Positions 4,232 to 21,737 of a DNA stretch of 64,000 nt are shown here, in pieces. The stretch spans positions 1,222 through 65,221 of the forward strand of contig JAODBI010000225.1 in the NCBI GenBank assembly GCA_025463875.1, read 5' to 3'. A model generated the notes under the pieces. That model was given only the letters and a program-made list of their open reading frames with translations. It searched no databases and was not told where the DNA came from. The stretch's first letter is position 1, and the number at the start of each line of letters is the position of its first letter. The stretch comes from Actinomycetes bacterium. GTDB lineage: Bacteria > Actinomycetota > Acidimicrobiia > IMCC26256 > PALSA-610. The translations under genes were made by a program, and so were the position numbers.

Positions 4232-6037
4232 TCAGCTCCAGGTGGACCCGTTCCAACTCGAGCCGTTCCAGGACGAGCCGTTCCAACTCGACCCGTTCCA
4301 CGACGAGCCGTTCCACGACGAGCCATTCCACGACGAGCCATTCCACGACGAGCCGTTCCAACTCGAGCCGTTCCAACACGACCCGTTCCACGACGAGCCA
4401 TTCCACGACGAGCCGTTCCAACTCGACCCGTTCCACGACGAGCCATTCCAACTCGACCCGTTCCACGACGAGCCGTTCCAGGACGAGAGCGCCCACGTCG
4501 AGTGCAGGTCGACATCGCTACCGACCGGAGTCGCCACCGTCGGCACCGTCTGGGTCAGCTCCAAACCCGGGAGCATGACCGCACCCAGGACGTTGAGCGC
4601 ACCGTGCCCGTCGACCATCGGGTTGCCGACGGGGCCCGGAACCGTGGTTCCCAAGAGCTGGGCCTTGACCTCGTCCGACGTCAACACCCGACCGCTGCCC
4701 TTGCCCGAGCTCAGCGCCGCGCCTTCGATCAACATCGCCGCCGCGCCGCTCGTGATCGCCGCACTGAACGACGTTCCCGAGCCGACGAAGTTGGCCGTGC
4801 CGATCCGCGCCGTCGGGTAGGTACGGTCGATGGTCGAACCGGGCGCCCGCAGGCTCACGACCGACCGGCCCGAGGTGACCAGGTCCGGCTTGAACCAGCC
4901 GTCGATGTTGGTGGGGCCGACACTGCTGAAGGTGGTCGCCGCACTCTGCGCCGGGTTCGTCGACCCGACGTCGTCGAGCGACCCGACGGTGATGACCAGC
5001 GGATCGTCACCGGGCGAGAGGATCGTGCCGTTGAACGGCCCCGCGTTGCCGGCGGAGACGACCACCGCGATGCCCGCCTGCCATGCGGTCTCGACGGCCT
5101 GGTCCAGAGGGTTGAGCACCGTCGACTGCGTGGGAATGGCGCCCATCGAGATGTTCAACACCCGGATGCCGTACTGGTCGCGATGCGACACGACCCAGTT
5201 GATCCCGGAGATGACCGTCGCGAGATCAGTCACACCGGTCGCACCGGCGACCTTGACCGAAACGAGGTTGGCGCCGGGCGCCTCACCCTTGTATGCGCCC
5301 TTCGACGACGCGCCGTTGCCCGCGATCAGCCCGGCGACGAACGTTCCGTGCCCGTAGCTGTCCTGGAACGCATTGCCTTCGCCGCTGAGGTCGACACCAC
5401 CGATGATCCGCTTCCCGAAATCGGGGAGCTTCGTGATACCGGTGTCGAGGACGGCCACGGCCACGCCCGAACCGTCGACATTGTTCTTCCACAGGGATGT
5501 GGCGCCCGTGGTCTGCGGGAAGACCGCGGCCGGCGCCCGCACGGCGCTCGGGAAGGAAGCGTCCTCGACTGCGACCGGTGCGTTCGGCGTCACGACCAGG
5601 TCGGGCTGCGCCTTCAGGGCCGCCAACTGGTCGGGTGAGACCTCGGCGACGACACCGCTGACCGCCGGCAGGTCCTTCTCGACGATGGCGGTGTCTGCAA
5701 CGCGCTGGCCGACGGCGTCCGTCTGCTCGGCGCGCTGACTCGCGTCGACGAGCGCAGCGGTCGGGTCACCGACGTCGCCGCTCGTGTACGGATCCGGGCG
5801 GTGCGCCGGCGTCACCAGAACGGTGACCGGGGCGCTCGACGCGGACGAGTCAATCGCCACCGCGCTGCCCATTGCGTCCGCGTACGCCGGGACGGCGACG
5901 CCGAGGCTCGCCACGGTCGCGACAGTCGCGACCAGCGCGACCCGGCGGTGCGCCCATTCGACGCCTCGGGCCGCAGCCCGCTTGTGTGACGAGCCCGGGC
6001 CCGCCGCATTGCCGATTCCTTCGTGCGATGCCCGCAC
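4232..6037 (-). CDS. S8 family (subtilisin-like) serine peptidase with C-terminal SSWNG repeat tail
   Basis: 601-aa ORF with a signal-like N-terminus (VALVATVATVASLGVAVPAYA). Subtilase triad motifs are present: VAVLDTGI (Asp), YGHGTFVAG (His), GSGTSFSAA (Ser). The last ~84 aa are pentapeptide repeats. Confidence 0.92.
   Translation of the reverse strand: MRASHEGIGNAAGPGSSHKRAAARGVEWAHRRVALVATVATVASLGVAVPAYADAMGSAVAIDSSASSAPVTVLVTPAHRPDPYTSGDVGDPTAALVDASQRAEQTDAVGQRVADTAIVEKDLPAVSGVVAEVSPDQLAALKAQPDLVVTPNAPVAVEDASFPSAVRAPAAVFPQTTGATSLWKNNVDGSGVAVAVLDTGITKLPDFGKRIIGGVDLSGEGNAFQDSYGHGTFVAGLIAGNGASSKGAYKGEAPGANLVSVKVAGATGVTDLATVISGINWVVSHRDQYGIRVLNISMGAIPTQSTVLNPLDQAVETAWQAGIAVVVSAGNAGPFNGTILSPGDDPLVITVGSLDDVGSTNPAQSAATTFSSVGPTNIDGWFKPDLVTSGRSVVSLRAPGSTIDRTYPTARIGTANFVGSGTSFSAAITSGAAAMLIEGAALSSGKGSGRVLTSDEVKAQLLGTTVPGPVGNPMVDGHGALNVLGAVMLPGLELTQTVPTVATPVGSDVDLHSTWALSSWNGSSWNGSSWNGSSWNGSSWNGSSWNGSSWNGSCWNGSSWNGSSWNGSSWNGSSWNGSSWNGSSWNGSSWNGSSWNGSTWS
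4235..4486 (-). repeat. About 16 tandem 15-bp units encoding (SSWNG)n
   Basis: Visible 15-bp periodicity (ccgttccaNNNcgag) on the plus strand. The minus-strand translation is SSWNG x16 (one SCWNG) followed by STWS and the stop. Units differ mostly at synonymous positions: Ser TCG/AGT/TCC, Gly GGC/GGG, Asn AAC/AAT. Confidence 0.95.
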
Positions 6038-8139: not shown

Positions 8140-9063
8140 TCAGCGCATGTCGACGTCGACCCGCCGGCCCGCGAGCGCGGCCCGCAGGTCGTTCAGCGTG
8201 CCGAGACTCTCCTCCGCCCCGTCGCGATCGCCCGCCGCGACCGCCAGGACGAGCGATTCGATCAGGACCAGAGTCGTTCCGTGGCTCGCGAACAGACCGG
8301 GGGTGCCGCGCCCGCATTCGAGCGTGGTGTGTACCGCCGAACCGAGCTTTCGGCCCAGCGTGTCGGTGATCAGCACGACGCGAAGGTCGAGCGCGTCACA
8401 CCGATCGAGCAGGACGCCCACGTGCGGCTGCAAACGGCCGTACGCCAAGACGACGACCGAGTCGCCGGGCGCGAGGGAGAGCAGCTCGTCGGCGAACGAC
8501 GTGCCGGTGTGCACGAGGGCCGCGCTCGGCTTTCCGACCCGTTCGCTCAGCAGTTGGCCGTATGCCGCGAGATGGGCCGACGGCCCTACGCCGCGCCACA
8601 CGATGCGGCGGCTCGCGGTCAGCACCGCCGCGGCCTGCTGGAACCGTTCAGCCGACACGTTCCGGGAGAGGGTCTCGATCGCGGCGAGATGGTTCCCGAT
8701 CGTCGCCCCGAACAGCTCTGCTCTCGGAGCCTGTTCGAGACTCCGACGCAGGCGCTGGCCGATGGACTCGTCGCCGGCCTGCGCGACCAGGGCTCGGCGG
8801 AGCTCGGCGAGACCCGAGTACCCGAGCGCCTTGGCGGTGCGCACGATCGTGGCGTCGCTCGTACCGATCCGTTCCGCCAGCGCGGCCGCCGACAGGAGAG
8901 ACGCCTCCGGGCCGAGCTCCAGGAGACGCTCGGCGACCCGGCGCTCGGCGGGGGCGACGTCGTCGACGCGTTCGGCGACCCGTGCGGAGAACGAGTCGGT
9001 TGGTTTTGCTACAGTCTTGACCACGGCAGTAGTATACGCTACTAACTGGTCCCCGACGCTCAT
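8140..9063 (-). CDS. MurR/RpiR family transcriptional regulator (HTH + SIS)
   Basis: ORF 8140..9075. N-terminal HTH (AERIGTSDATIVRTAKALGYSGLAELR) followed by a SIS-type sugar-phosphate binding domain. The start is uncertain (ATG 9063, GTG 9024). An AGTAG-N6-CTACT inverted repeat lies at 9028-9043 in the 5' region shared with the divergent gene. Confidence 0.85.
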   Translation of the reverse strand: MSVGDQLVAYTTAVVKTVAKPTDSFSARVAERVDDVAPAERRVAERLLELGPEASLLSAAALAERIGTSDATIVRTAKALGYSGLAELRRALVAQAGDESIGQRLRRSLEQAPRAELFGATIGNHLAAIETLSRNVSAERFQQAAAVLTASRRIVWRGVGPSAHLAAYGQLLSERVGKPSAALVHTGTSFADELLSLAPGDSVVVLAYGRLQPHVGVLLDRCDALDLRVVLITDTLGRKLGSAVHTTLECGRGTPGLFASHGTTLVLIESLVLAVAAGDRDGAEESLGTLNDLRAALAGRRVDVDMR

Positions 9064-9077
9064 GATCCGAGGCAACC

Positions 9078-9818
9078 ATGCACAGCGTCCTCTTGGTGGC
9101 CGCCGCGTTCCTCGCGGCGGCGGTGGAGATGGTCGAGGCCCTCACCATCGTGCTCGCGGTCGGGGTCACCCGAGGCTGGCGATCGGCGGGGTGGGGCGTT
9201 GCCGCCGCGCTCCTCGCGCTCACCGGGATCATCGGCGCGCTCGGTCCGGCGATCGCGAATCTTCCGATCGACGATCTACGACTCGTCGTCGGCACCGTCT
9301 TGTTGATCTTCGGCCTGCAGTGGTTGCGCAAGGCGATCCTGCGTTCCAGTGGCCTCAAGGCACAGCACGACGAGGACGCGATCTACCGAGCGGAGATCGA
9401 GGCGCTACGCGACGGCGGCGGTCGTCGCGTTCACGATTGGTACGCGTTCACGGTGGCGTTCAAGGGCGTCTTCCTCGAAGGACTCGAGGTCGCGTTCATC
9501 GTCGTGACGTTCGGGGGCGCGCAGAAGAACGTCGGGCTCGCGGCGATCGGTGCGGCGGCAGCGCTGGTGGTCGTGCTGATCGCGGGAGTGATCGCCCATG
9601 CCCCGCTCAGCCGGGTGCCCGAGAACTCACTGAAGTTCGGAGTGGGGATCATGCTCAGCGCGTTCGGGATCTTCTGGGCGGCCGAGGGCGCCGGCGTCTC
9701 GTGGCCGGGCGCCGATGCCTCGCTGCTCGGCGTGATCGGAATCGTCATCCTGCTTTCGTTCGGACTCGTCGCAGTGATGCGGCGCGCGGCCCCGCGCGGT
9801 ATCGCAGCCGTGACATGA
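9078..9818 (+). CDS. Integral membrane protein (COG4280-like; two ExxEA/GL-containing halves)
   Basis: 246-aa ORF with GAGG 6 nt upstream of the ATG and about 6 hydrophobic helices. It has an internal repeat, EMVEALTIVLAVG / EGLEVAFIVVTFG. Its TGA stop (9816-9818) is supplied by the first unit of the 13-bp array. Confidence 0.7.
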   Translation: MHSVLLVAAAFLAAAVEMVEALTIVLAVGVTRGWRSAGWGVAAALLALTGIIGALGPAIANLPIDDLRLVVGTVLLIFGLQWLRKAILRSSGLKAQHDEDAIYRAEIEALRDGGGRRVHDWYAFTVAFKGVFLEGLEVAFIVVTFGGAQKNVGLAAIGAAAALVVVLIAGVIAHAPLSRVPENSLKFGVGIMLSAFGIFWAAEGAGVSWPGADASLLGVIGIVILLSFGLVAVMRRAAPRGIAAVT

Positions 9819-9954
9819 GGTTGGGACATGAGGTTGGGACATGAGGTTGGGACATGAGGTTGGGACATGAGGTTGGGACATGAGGTTGGGACATGAGGTT
9901 GGGACATGAGGTTGGGACATGAGGTTGGGACATGACGTTGGAACATCACGTTGA
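9812..9954 (+). repeat. 13-bp tandem repeat GACATGAGGTTGG: 9 perfect copies plus 2 degenerate ones (further decayed copies up to 9989)
   Basis: Perfect units start at 9812, 9825, ... 9916. Unit 9929-9941 has 1 mismatch and 9942-9954 has about 4. Relics lie at 9961-9976 and 9977-9989. Each unit contains GAGG followed 7 nt later by ATG. Confidence 0.97.
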
Positions 9955-9993
9955 CACAGGGATACATGGGGTGTGGGACATGAGGTGTGACAC

Positions 9994-10257
9994 ATGAAGT
10001 GGCTCTCCCAGTTCGGCCGGTTCTGGTACGACTTCATCGTCGGAGACGATTGGACCATCGCCGCCGCCGTCGTTGCCGTCGTCGCGCTGACCGCCGCCGT
10101 TGCGCACTCGGGGCACCTGGCGTGGCCGATCCTGCCGATCGGAGTGGCCCTGGTCCTGACCGCTTCGGTGTGGCGTGTCCTGCGTTCCGAGCGCCGTGCG
10201 AGCACGCCGCCCGCCGCTGATGGTCCACACGCGTCGGAGAACGGCGGCGCGCGTTGA
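9994..10257 (+). CDS. Small membrane protein (2 TM), translationally coupled to uppP
   Basis: 87-aa ORF, MKWLSQFGRFWYDFIVGDDWTIAAAVVAVVAL.., with two hydrophobic helices. GAGG lies 7 nt upstream of the ATG. Its TGA overlaps the TTG start of uppP (TTGA). Confidence 0.6.
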   Translation: MKWLSQFGRFWYDFIVGDDWTIAAAVVAVVALTAAVAHSGHLAWPILPIGVALVLTASVWRVLRSERRASTPPAADGPHASENGGAR

Positions 10258-11144
10258 TCAGCTACTTCCAGGCCATCGTCATCGGGGCGCTCCAGGGCAT
10301 CACCGAGCTCTTCCCCGTCTCGAGCCTCGGGCACTCGGTCCTCGTGCCGGCGTGGCTCGGATGGGACACGTTGGTCAAGGACCAGTCGCGCAACGAGTCG
10401 CCGTACCTCGCCTTCGTCGTCGCACTACACGTCGCGACCGCGCTGGCGCTCCTGGTCTACTTCCGGTCGGACTGGGCGCGCATCATCAAGGGGTTCTTTC
10501 ACACGCTCCGCACGCGCAAGCTCGAGACGGCCGACGAACGCATGGCGTGGCTGCTCATCGTTGCGACCATCCCGGCGGGCATCACCGGCATCGTGTTGGA
10601 GCACTCGCTCAGAACGTTGTTCGCAAAACCGCTCGCGGCCGCGATCTTCCTCACCGTGAACGGTGTGCTGCTCTTGTTCGGCGACTGGCTCCGGCGCCGG
10701 CGCACGACCCGGGCGATCATCGACAGGCATCCGAAGACCCAAAGTCGCAGCGAGGAGGGCCGCCGCCTCGACACCCTCGACTTCCGGGAGGCGCTCGCGG
10801 TCGGCGTCGCACAGATCGGCGCACTCTTCGCGGGCATCAGCCGATCGGGCATCACGATGGTCGCCGGTCTCGCACGCGGTCTCGATCACGAAGACGCGGC
10901 GCGCTTCTCCTTCTTGCTGGCGACGCCCATCATCCTGGCCGCGGGGCTCTACAAAGTTCATGACTTCGTCGGCCCGAACGGCGACGGGATTCGTGGCCAG
11001 GCGCTCGTCGGTGGCATCGTCGCGGCCGGTGCCGCGTTCGTCGCTATCCACTTCCTTCTGCGTTTCTTCGAGACCCGCAACCTGCTGCCGTTCGCGATCT
11101 ACTGTCTGCTCGCCGGCGGCATTTCGGTCGTGAGGTTTGCGTAG
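10254..11144 (+). CDS. uppP: Undecaprenyl-diphosphate phosphatase (BacA/UppP)
   Basis: 296 aa. The N-terminus ISYFQAIVIGALQGITELFPVSSLGHSVL and the later GISRSGITM motif are the classic UppP signatures. The protein is polytopic. Confidence 0.94.
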   Translation: MISYFQAIVIGALQGITELFPVSSLGHSVLVPAWLGWDTLVKDQSRNESPYLAFVVALHVATALALLVYFRSDWARIIKGFFHTLRTRKLETADERMAWLLIVATIPAGITGIVLEHSLRTLFAKPLAAAIFLTVNGVLLLFGDWLRRRRTTRAIIDRHPKTQSRSEEGRRLDTLDFREALAVGVAQIGALFAGISRSGITMVAGLARGLDHEDAARFSFLLATPIILAAGLYKVHDFVGPNGDGIRGQALVGGIVAAGAAFVAIHFLLRFFETRNLLPFAIYCLLAGGISVVRFA

Positions 11145-20997: not shown

Positions 20998-21714
20998 GTG
21001 ACCGTCGTCGTCGCGCATCGAACGTGCCCTCGTGACGCACCCGAGAATTCATTGGAAGGCATCGTCGCTTCGGCCCGGCTCGGAGCCGACGTGGTGGAGC
21101 TCGACGCTCGGCGCAGTCGCGACGGCACGGCGGTCGTGATCCACGATCCGTGGCTCGGGCGTCTTCAACACGTGCCGTGGCCGGTGCGCGGGGCGAGTGA
21201 TTCGCTGTTGCGCCGTTTGCGGGTGCCGACGCTCGCCGACGCGCTGCAGACGGCGCGCTCCGTGGGGCTGCGGGTTGCGATCGACGCGAAGGACCCGGGC
21301 GTCGTCGGGGCCGTCCTCGAAGCCGTGCGCCGGACCGGGGCGCAGGAGCACGTGCTGTTCTGGTCGCAACACCTGTCGGCCGCCCACGGCTTCGCGCGAG
21401 CAGTCCCCGGCGCCGAGGTGGGGCTGTTCCGCGACACGTTCGACGAGGCGGCTCACCTTCGACTGCTCGCCGACGCCGCGGCGATCGGTGCGCGCGCGGT
21501 GTCGGTGCATCAAGACGCGGCCATGGTCGGGTTCATCGCCGCGGCGCGGGCGCGCGGCCTCGACGTGTACGTCGGATATCAGAGCCTCGGCGTCCAGTCC
21601 GAGCGTTTACGGGTGAGGGCCGACGCCGGCCTGACGGGTGTCGTCACGGATTGGCCGGCGGAGGCCCGCAGGCTGCTCGACCATACGACTCACCCTGACG
21701 ATCGGTCACCCTGA
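20998..21714 (+). CDS. Glycerophosphodiester phosphodiesterase family protein
   Basis: 238 aa. GDPD motifs: AHRTCPRDAPENSLEGI, VELDARRSRDGTAVVIHD, and a C-terminal VTDWP. Confidence 0.85.
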   Translation: MTVVVAHRTCPRDAPENSLEGIVASARLGADVVELDARRSRDGTAVVIHDPWLGRLQHVPWPVRGASDSLLRRLRVPTLADALQTARSVGLRVAIDAKDPGVVGAVLEAVRRTGAQEHVLFWSQHLSAAHGFARAVPGAEVGLFRDTFDEAAHLRLLADAAAIGARAVSVHQDAAMVGFIAAARARGLDVYVGYQSLGVQSERLRVRADAGLTGVVTDWPAEARRLLDHTTHPDDRSP

Positions 21715-21737
21715 CGATCGGTCACCCTGACGATCGC
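21690..21737 (+). repeat. 16-bp x3 tandem repeat (TCACCCTGACGATCGG) spanning the GDPD stop codon
   Basis: Copies lie at 21690-21705, 21706-21721 and 21722-21737 (last base differs). The gene's TGA (21712-21714) lies in copy 2. The same CTGA in copy 1 is read as cct-gac. Confidence 0.95.

What the first reader, a model, noticed from the sequence alone, without database searches (positions are those of the whole stretch)
9812..9993. 13-bp tandem array of Shine-Dalgarno+ATG mimics linking a membrane-protein gene to the small-membrane-protein/uppP start
Seen directly:
- The unit GACATGAGGTTGG is repeated head to tail. There are 9 perfect copies (9812-9928), then progressively decayed copies (9929-9941, 9942-9954, 9961-9976, 9977-9989) running up to the ATG at 9994.
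- Every unit has GAGG followed 7 nt later by ATG. The genuine start has the same geometry (GAGG 9983-9986, ATG 9994). The array therefore looks like serial duplication of the downstream gene's own translation-initiation region.
- Each ATG opens a 9-codon ORF (MRLGHEVGT) whose TGA overlaps the ATG two units further on (ATGA).
- The TGA of the upstream gene (9816-9818) overlaps the first array ATG (9815).
- A 13-nt unit is not a multiple of 3. All three + frames are closed and all three - frames are open.

Inference: this is a slippage-prone element. It could tune or phase-vary expression of the small membrane protein and uppP (a bacitracin-relevant phosphatase), act as a ribosome standby site or sponge, or relay translation from the upstream gene through chained termination-reinitiation. 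I know of no described element of this type.
Basis: partly seen in the sequence, partly recalled or inferred. Interest (0 to 1): 0.68.

Follow-up and report, generated by a model that had tools for sequence, protein, structure and literature searches.

The report
Variable tandem repeat born from gene junction
Two membrane-protein genes that normally overlap by four bases (ATGA) have been pushed apart here by a 13-base repeat copied from that overlap; copy number differs (2 versus 9) between near-identical soil strains, so this is a real but fairly ordinary variable repeat with an unusually clear origin.

Summary
GACATGAGGTTGG occurs 9 times perfectly at 9812-9928, followed by decayed 13-nt and 14-nt copies up to the ATG at 9994.

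Comparison with relatives shows what it is:
- The 246-aa membrane-protein gene and the small membrane-protein gene form a pair conserved across phyla. In 52 of 74 readable species loci the stop and start overlap (ATGA/GTGA).
- Relatives about 90% identical keep that overlap (GACATGAGATGG).
- Relatives 95-97% identical carry one 14-nt duplication of it.
- Five other metagenome assemblies encode identical proteins, and the three long ones are 99.7-99.9% identical in DNA downstream. They carry the same decayed copies but only 2 perfect units.
- The window has 9, and the difference is exactly 7 x 13 nt.

So this is a slippage-type variable repeat born in place from a stop/start junction. Each unit inherits GAGG, ATG and TGA. 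The array therefore reads as overlapping 9-codon mini-ORFs that lead to the true start, unbroken for even copy numbers and with one 11-nt gap for odd ones.

Any regulatory role is untested. The uppP link is restricted to close relatives.

The parts
9078..9818 (+). Upstream gene: 246-aa multi-pass membrane protein with weak similarity to OFeT_1. Its stop TGA is at 9816-9818, inside the first repeat unit.
   Evidence: ORF list. Pfam PF16955, 28.5 bits. Thousands of homologues, most 246 aa long. It is MCU1466665.1 of a metagenome-assembled Actinomycetia genome.
9812..9928 (+). Nine perfect 13-nt units GACATGAGGTTGG. This is the block whose copy number varies. Each unit carries GAGG, then 7 nt, then the next unit's ATG, and an ATGA.
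   Evidence: Only 2 units are present in L006, L007, L008, L012 and L013.
9929..9954 (+). Two decayed 13-nt units. In GACATGACGTTGG the GAGG is lost and the ATG at 9932 is kept. In AACATCACGTTGA both the ATG and the TGA are lost, and a new TGA lies at 9952-9954.
   Evidence: The same copies are present in the 2-unit alleles. A variant of them (GACATCACGTTGA) is present in L106, which is 97% identical in DNA, so they are older than the perfect block.
9955..9963 (+). A 9-nt remnant of a unit, CACAGGGAT. L106 has CACATGGAT here, still with an ATG.
9964..9991 (+). Two 14-nt units, ACATGGGGTGTGGG and ACATGAGGTGTGAC. They encode 5-codon mini-ORFs (ATG 9966 MGCGT, ATG 9980 MRCDT) linked by ATGA overlaps. 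GAGG at 9982-9985 is the Shine-Dalgarno-like motif 8 nt before the true start.
   Evidence: TRF period 14 at 9964-10001. Mini-ORF trace. Coordinates. The 13-nt unit equals the L106 14-nt unit ACATGAGGTGTGGG minus one G.
9992..10005 (+). The founding junction copy, ACATGAAGTGGCTC, containing the true start ATG at 9994. It is homologous to the ATGA overlap of relatives.
   Evidence: Junction sequences of L001, L003, L005, L014-L016 and L107-L109.
9994..10257 (+). Small membrane-protein gene, 87 aa, beginning MKWLSQFGRFWYDF. It is the conserved partner of the upstream gene.
   Evidence: tblastn finds it directly downstream of the large gene in 78 of 80 species loci.
10254..11144 (+). uppP (undecaprenyl-diphosphate phosphatase). 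Its TTG start overlaps the small gene's TGA as TTGA, so it is the third gene in the coupled series.
   Evidence: Pfam BacA 252 bits. NCBIfam NF001395 438 bits. Overlap shown.

Best explanation
The array is a variable-number tandem repeat that arose in place, by tandem duplication of the ATGA stop/start overlap between two translationally coupled genes.

**Shown**
1. The ancestral and widespread state is a 4-nt overlap.
2. A first 14-nt duplication separated the genes by 10 nt. It left a 5-codon leader mini-ORF whose start overlaps the upstream stop and whose stop overlaps the true start. It also placed a GAGG 8 nt before the true ATG.
3. More copies were added. A 13-nt derivative (the 14-nt unit minus one G) was amplified, and older copies decayed.
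4. The perfect block now differs between near-identical strains, 2 units against 9.

**Inferred**
- Expansion and contraction occur by replication slippage.
- The array is co-transcribed with both genes.
- Each unit carries GAGG, ATG and TGA, and the RNA is unusually unstructured. Ribosomes would therefore translate overlapping 9-codon mini-ORFs and be handed down to the small gene's start.
- Under that reading the insertion is tolerated and changes downstream translation only quantitatively.
- The invariant proximal 14-nt unit supplies the small gene's own ribosome-binding site in every allele.
For: - **Ancestral overlap.** Of 74 readable junctions among 78 species-representative loci, 52 have a -4 overlap, 4 have -1, and the largest gap is 82 nt. 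The window has 175 nt.
- **Stage 0.** Relatives about 90% identical in protein (L001, L002, L003, L005) have ...GAT(G/T)(A/T)CATGAGATGG... with the ATGA overlap.
- **Stage 1.** Relatives 95-97% identical (L014-L016, L101-L104, L107-L109) have ACATGAGG(T/A)GTG.. followed by ACATGAAGTGG, a 10-nt gap. The 14-nt self-similarity has p of about 0.01 in L107.
- **Stage 2.** L006, L007, L008, L012 and L013 come from five assemblies and encode identical proteins wherever the contigs reach the genes. Downstream DNA of the three long contigs (L006, L007, L011) is 99.7-99.9% identical to the window; L012 and L013 are 98.9-99.0% identical. They carry all the decayed copies but 2 perfect units, an 84-nt gap against 175 nt. 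The difference is 91 nt, or 7 x 13.
- **Contig breaks.** L011 and L106 begin inside the array.
- **Mini-ORF chain.** Traced.
- **RNA structure.** The region 9790-10020 folds worse than all 200 shuffles, z = +4.46. No G-quadruplex is predicted.
- **No alternative signals.** No promoter-like or terminator-like site at 8900-10500 and no Rfam match.
- **Independent case.** A separate 13-nt tandem duplication sits at the same junction in a complete Thermomicrobiales chromosome (L051); none of 2000 shuffles matched its score.
Against: - All alleles come from metagenome assemblies and no reads were examined. The value 9 could be a lower bound: a de Bruijn assembler with a final k of 112-124 would output exactly 124 periodic bases for any longer array (my reasoning, not tested).
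- Only two length classes were seen, 2 and 9. The 9-unit allele appears in one assembly only.
- No data on transcription or translation exist for this organism.
- Reinitiation through up to seven successive mini-ORFs may be inefficient.
- The proximal ribosome-binding site may make the array irrelevant to expression.
Confidence: 0.62

Rival explanations
1. The array is an adaptive contingency locus or rheostat. Slippage changes copy number, and this tunes or switches translation of the small protein (and uppP) relative to the large protein. The switch would act through total spacer length and through copy-number parity. Even numbers give an unbroken chain of ATGA overlaps from the upstream stop to the true start. 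Odd numbers break the chain once.
For: - The parity rule was verified by simulating 0-13 units.
- The common allele has an even number (2) and an unbroken chain. The window's allele (9) has one 11-nt gap.
- The array has persisted through about 3% DNA divergence, because L106 shares the decayed copies.
- The gene pair is otherwise held at a -4 overlap, which suggests that stoichiometry matters. Huber et al. 2023, cited in PMC12548453, link such overlaps to heteromeric complexes.
Against: - The chain geometry follows arithmetically from duplicating an ATGA junction, so it needs no selection.
- Both parities still reach the true start.
- The proximal ribosome-binding site is identical in all alleles.
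- Only two alleles were observed.
- There is no expression data.
Confidence: 0.15
2. The 9-copy block is an assembly artefact. The true locus has 2 units as in the other assemblies, or an unknown number.
For: - The window comes from a metagenome-assembled genome.
- Five other assemblies show 2 units.
- A 124-nt periodic stretch is close to common maximum k-mer sizes (119, 127).
Against: - With 2 units the periodic stretch is 33 nt. That creates no cycle in a graph built with the k values of 119-127 seen in contig names, so an assembler has no route to invent 7 extra perfect copies.
- The array and its decayed copies are reproduced independently in all assemblies.
- At worst the number 9 is an underestimate.
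Confidence: 0.07
3. The repeat is a binding array for a protein or an RNA-binding regulator (operator or iteron type, or a GGA-motif sponge as in CsrB), or it encodes a product on the opposite strand.
For: - Each unit contains GGGA.
- All three reverse frames are open.
Against: - No Rfam family matches.
- The antisense ORFs have no Pfam match.
- The repeated antisense peptide PNLMSQPHVPTSC has no relative among 5.8 billion proteins.
- The unit occurs nowhere else in the window and at no other locus among the fetched relatives.
- The origin from the gene junction explains the sequence without any binding partner.
- To my knowledge CsrA is not found in Actinomycetota.
Confidence: 0.03

Closest known systems
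MIRU (mycobacterial interspersed repetitive units), e.g. the senX3-regX3 intergenic repeats of Mycobacterium tuberculosis (Supply et al. 1997, as summarised in review PMC12548453)
   Same: - Both are tandem, copy-number-variable units in an Actinomycetota operon, lying between co-oriented genes.
- Both carry an internal ORF coupled at -4 nt to the flanking gene, which is thought to minimise the effect on expression.
   Different: - From my own knowledge, MIRU units are roughly 40-100 bp. They are dispersed over many loci and appear mobile.
- Here the unit is 13-14 nt and is found at one locus only.
- It demonstrably derives from the local junction.
- The unit length is not a multiple of 3, so mini-ORFs span two units.
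Simple-sequence-repeat contingency loci, e.g. the 7-bp repeats upstream of hmw1A/hmw2A in Haemophilus influenzae that grade expression (from my own knowledge)
   Same: - Perfect head-to-tail repeats whose length is not a multiple of 3, lying outside the coding frame.
- Copy number differs between close strains.
- Slippage is the presumed mechanism.
   Different: - Those repeats lie between promoter and gene and act on transcript level.
- Here the repeat is intercistronic, is made of translation signals, and no effect on expression has been shown.
Leader-ORF or 'bicistronic design' translational coupling (short upstream ORF that contains the Shine-Dalgarno sequence and whose stop overlaps the start of the gene; PMC12548453)
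   Same: The proximal 14-nt unit (9978-9997) has exactly this layout: a 5-codon ORF containing GAGG, with a TGA that overlaps ATG 9994. Stage-1 relatives have only this unit.
   Different: It is natural and arose by duplication. In the window it is preceded by a whole series of such units.
Intergenic TAACTGA heptamer direct repeats of Beggiatoaceae, Cyanobacteria and Bacteroidetes (PMC4679880)
   Same: Tandem repeats with a unit length not divisible by 3, lying just upstream of start codons, proposed to act in translation.
   Different: - Those repeats occur at 169 sites in one genome and share one sequence across phyla.
- They rarely coincide with canonical ribosome-binding sites.
- This array is a single-locus derivative of its own junction.

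Membership tests
Variable-number tandem repeat / simple-sequence contingency locus | Head-to-tail repeats of high purity | tested here: met
   Nine exact units, with 98% matches over 10.4 copies.
Variable-number tandem repeat / simple-sequence contingency locus | Copy number differs between closely related genomes while the flanks stay the same | tested here: met
   Five other assemblies have 2 units and the window has 9. Downstream DNA is 98.9-99.9% identical and the flanking proteins are identical. This rests on assemblies only, not on reads.
Variable-number tandem repeat / simple-sequence contingency locus | A change in copy number switches or grades expression of the adjacent gene | not testable with these tools
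   Only the geometry could be computed.
MIRU | Lies between co-oriented genes of an operon, with an internal ORF overlapping the flanking stop and start codons | tested here: met
   ATG 9815 overlaps TGA 9816-9818, and TGA 9995-9997 overlaps ATG 9994.
MIRU | The same unit is dispersed over many loci of the genome (interspersed, apparently mobile) | tested here: not met
   There is no other copy in the 64-kb window. The unit appears at no other locus among the fetched relatives. Only 4 unrelated hits, at the level expected by chance, were found in the metagenome collection. The rest of the genome was not available.
MIRU | Unit length of tens of bases (about 40-100 bp, from my own knowledge) | tested here: not met
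   Units are 13 and 14 nt.
Translationally coupled gene pair (-4 overlap) | The stop of the upstream gene overlaps the start of the downstream gene (ATGA/GTGA) | tested here: not met
   The window has a 175-nt spacer. The feature is met in 52 of 74 relatives and in the nearest array-free relatives, so it is the ancestral state and not the present one.
Known structured RNA families (Rfam) | Match to a curated covariance model | tested here: not met
   No match at E <= 1 in 9000-10800. The RNA folds less well than shuffles.

The most novel reading that the evidence does not exclude
The array would be a self-generated 'translation relay' that acts as a stochastic switch. Each unit is a complete module of Shine-Dalgarno sequence, start and stop. 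Because 13 is 1 more than a multiple of 3, gaining or losing one unit toggles between two states. In one, an unbroken chain of ATGA overlaps runs from the large gene's stop to the small gene's start. In the other, the chain is interrupted once. Slippage would then vary the subunit ratio of a conserved membrane-protein pair, and of uppP, from cell to cell. More generally, stop/start overlaps could be birthplaces of such repeats. An independent 13-nt duplication at the same junction in a Thermomicrobiales chromosome hints at this.
Probability: 0.12. Interest if true: 0.65.

Novelty: new variant of a known kind. Interest (0 to 1): 0.4.

Why it matters
- **Origin.** This is a clean natural series showing how a 4-base gene overlap can be taken apart by tandem duplication and then turn into a variable repeat: overlap, then one duplicated unit, then several, then 2 or 9 perfect units.
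- **Consequence of that origin.** The repeat keeps ribosome-handover signals simply because of where it came from. This offers an origin in place for MIRU-like intercistronic repeats, and a natural counterpart of engineered leader-ORF expression cassettes.
- **Practical uses.** The locus could serve as a strain marker in soil metagenomes. It is also a warning that short-read assemblies may misreport copy number.
- **Limit.** No evidence shows that it regulates anything, so its importance is modest unless an effect on expression is demonstrated.

Tried and rejected
- **Rfam.** A scan of 9000-10800 at E <= 1 found nothing.
- **Promoters and terminators.** The consensus scan of 8900-10500 found none. 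It uses sigma-70 consensus hexamers and may miss actinobacterial promoters.
- **Antisense product.** The two long reverse-strand ORFs have no Pfam match. The 13-aa repeated antisense peptide has no relative in the 5.8-billion-protein collection. That search was also meant to find other long arrays, and it found none.
- **G-quadruplex.** Folding with G-quadruplexes allowed predicted none. The array alone gives -12.6 kcal/mol against -25.4 +/- 8.9 for shuffles.
- **Metagenome scan.** A search for ACATGAGGTTGGGACATGA gave 4 hits at unrelated loci, about the number expected by chance for a 19-mer. None was orthologous.
- **CRISPR.** Rejected because there are no spacers between the units.
- **CsrA-type sponge.** Rejected because there is no family match and, to my knowledge, the phylum lacks CsrA.
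- **Function of the gene pair.** NCBIfam and a sequence search of solved structures gave nothing for either protein.
- **Second repeat.** A cluster look-up for the second repeat-bearing gene (20998-21714) failed because that exact sequence is not in the collection.

Full report
**1. The observation**

Tandem Repeats Finder gives 9812-9946, period 13, 10.4 copies, 98% matches. The exact unit GACATGAGGTTGG occurs nine times head to tail at 9812-9928. Allowing two mismatches there are 15 hits in the window against 1.28 expected. Exact periodicity covers 9812-9935, 124 nt.

The upstream ORF (9078-9818) ends with TGA 9816-9818, which overlaps ATG 9815-9817. Every unit ATG opens the 9-codon ORF MRLGHEVGT, whose TGA overlaps the ATG two units on. 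The + frames are closed and the - frames are open.

Two details need correcting:
- The GAGG before the true start is at 9982-9985, 8 nt before ATG 9994. The last copies are 14-nt units, not 13-nt units.
- The decayed part parses as two 13-nt units, a 9-nt remnant and three 14-nt units. The last 14-nt unit holds the true start.

**2. The genes**

- 9078-9818 encodes a 246-aa membrane protein with a borderline OFeT_1 match.
- 9994-10257 encodes an 87-aa membrane protein.
- 10254-11144 is uppP. Its TTG start overlaps the small gene's TGA.

The three proteins are MCU1466665-7 of a metagenome-assembled 'Actinomycetia bacterium'. The nearest species representatives are labelled Acidimicrobiia or uncultured Actinomycetes.

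**3. Comparison with relatives**

In a scan of species-representative genomes, 78 of the 80 best loci have the small gene directly after the large one. These loci come from Actinomycetota, Chloroflexota and Deinococcales. Of 74 readable junctions:
- 52 have a -4 overlap (ATGA/GTGA);
- 4 have a -1 overlap;
- 9 have gaps of 1-5 nt;
- 6 have gaps of 10-25 nt;
- 3 have larger gaps, with a maximum of 82 nt.

The window's 175-nt gap is the largest. uppP follows the pair only in the closest relatives and in one 80%-identical species locus.

The closer relatives form a series:
- **About 90% protein identity (L001, L002, L003, L005).** The sequence reads ...GATGACATGAGATGGATC... with the overlap intact.
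- **95-97% identity (L014-L016, L101-L104, L107-L109).** The sequence reads ...ACATGAGGTGTGGC|ACATGAAGTGGCTC..., one 14-nt duplication giving a 10-nt gap. The self-similarity has p of about 0.01 in L107.
- **Identical proteins (L006, L007, L008, L012, L013).** These come from five assemblies. Downstream DNA of L006, L007 and L011 is 99.7-99.9% identical to the window, and that of L012 and L013 is 98.9-99.0% identical. All the decayed copies are present but only two perfect units, an 84-nt gap.
- **The window.** It has nine perfect units. The difference from the previous stage is 91 nt, exactly 7 x 13.

L106, 97% identical in DNA, shares the decayed copies in a less decayed form. It also shows the 14-nt unit ACATGAGGTGTGGG, from which the 13-nt unit differs by loss of one G. 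The contigs L011 and L106 begin inside the array.

**4. What it is**

The array is a variable tandem repeat generated in place from the stop/start overlap of a coupled gene pair. It has an old, decayed 3' part and a young, length-variable 5' block. The unit occurs nowhere else in the window and at no other locus among the fetched relatives. A metagenome-wide search gave only hits at chance level.

Similar events happened independently at the same junction. L051, a complete Thermomicrobiales chromosome, carries a 13-nt duplication; none of 2000 shuffles matched its score. L004 has a 30-nt in-frame insertion.

**5. Is it an artefact?**

A 2-unit allele has only 33 periodic bases. Graphs built with the k values of 119-127 seen in contig names would contain no cycle there, so seven extra perfect copies cannot be invented. 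The reverse risk is real. If the final k was between 112 and 124, a longer array would be output with exactly 124 periodic bases. Nine may therefore be a lower bound. This is my reasoning; no reads were available.

**6. How it probably works**

The following points are inferred, not shown.
- The ancestral overlap forces co-transcription. No promoter-like or terminator-like site, and no known RNA family, lies in the array.
- The RNA is markedly unstructured. It has z = +4.46 and all 200 shuffles fold at least as well. No G-quadruplex is predicted.
- Each unit offers GAGG, then 7 nt, then ATG.
- From the upstream stop, the mini-ORFs run 9815, 9841, 9867, 9893, 9919, ending at TGA 9952-9954. After an 11-nt gap come ATG 9966, then 9980, then the true ATG 9994, each linked by an ATGA overlap.
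- The other register (9828 ... 9932) ends directly on the true start.
- Simulation of 0-13 units shows an unbroken chain for even numbers and a single 11-nt gap for odd numbers.
- This geometry follows arithmetically from duplicating an ATGA junction, so it needs no selection.
- The first duplication also put a GAGG before a start that had none in the array-free relatives. That may explain why it was kept.

My best reading is a tolerated, near-neutral slippage repeat that preserves ribosome handover. The proximal 14-nt unit would act as a natural leader-ORF cassette. A regulatory switch is possible but unsupported.

**7. Comparison with known elements**

- **MIRU.** The closest element is the MIRU repeat of mycobacterial operons, whose internal ORF is coupled at -4 nt to the neighbouring gene (PMC12548453). 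This array shares the position and the overlaps. It fails on dispersal and on unit size, so it is not a member of that family.
- **Contingency loci.** It meets the structural criteria and the polymorphism criterion of a contingency-type repeat. The expression criterion could not be tested.
- **TAACTGA heptamer repeats (PMC4679880).** These are a looser parallel.

**8. Verdict**

The feature is real and its origin is well resolved. The kind of element is known, the variant is new, and its function is undemonstrated.

Noticed in passing
window 21690-21736: A second perfect tandem repeat whose unit is not a multiple of 3: TCACCCTGACGATCGG, 2.9 copies, 100% matches. It covers the stop codon of a glycerophosphodiesterase-like ORF (20998-21714), so copy number would change that protein's C-terminus. 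It suggests this lineage is prone to short tandem duplications at gene ends.
   Followed up: partly
window 4248-4487 (- strand gene 4232-6037): A 15-nt repeat with 16 copies encodes a run of SSWNG pentapeptides at the C-terminus of a subtilisin-like (S8-type) secreted protease.
   Followed up: partly
L051 about 2225-2300 (Thermomicrobiales chromosome OZ244596.1): An independent 13-nt tandem duplication at the same gene junction, this time copying the stop-codon side (TCGACGTAATGAT / TCGACGTAACGAT / TCGACG...). It gives a 39-nt gap.
   Followed up: partly
L004 3738-3770: A 30-nt in-frame insertion at the junction. The ATG overlapping the upstream stop now opens a small protein extended by 10 residues (MRTADTRSGP-MRW...), so the overlap is kept in a different way.
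   Followed up: no
L017-L096, and window 9078-10257: The uncharacterised pair of a 246-aa membrane protein and a roughly 60-aa membrane protein (N-terminus M.W..FGRFWYDF..GDDW) is conserved across Actinomycetota, Chloroflexota and Deinococcales, mostly with a 4-nt overlap. It is likely a two-subunit membrane complex of unknown function.
   Followed up: partly
L068 about 2215-2320: An 82-nt spacer at the same junction contains what looks by eye like a G+C-rich inverted repeat (ggggcggcgc...gcgccgcccc). It appears to be a hairpin-type insertion rather than a duplication.
   Followed up: no
window 10180-10257 compared with L001 about 985-996: The small protein is 86-87 aa in all lineages with a duplicated junction but 63 aa in the array-free relatives. 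The extra 24 residues are a C-terminal extension that ends in the overlap with uppP.
   Followed up: no
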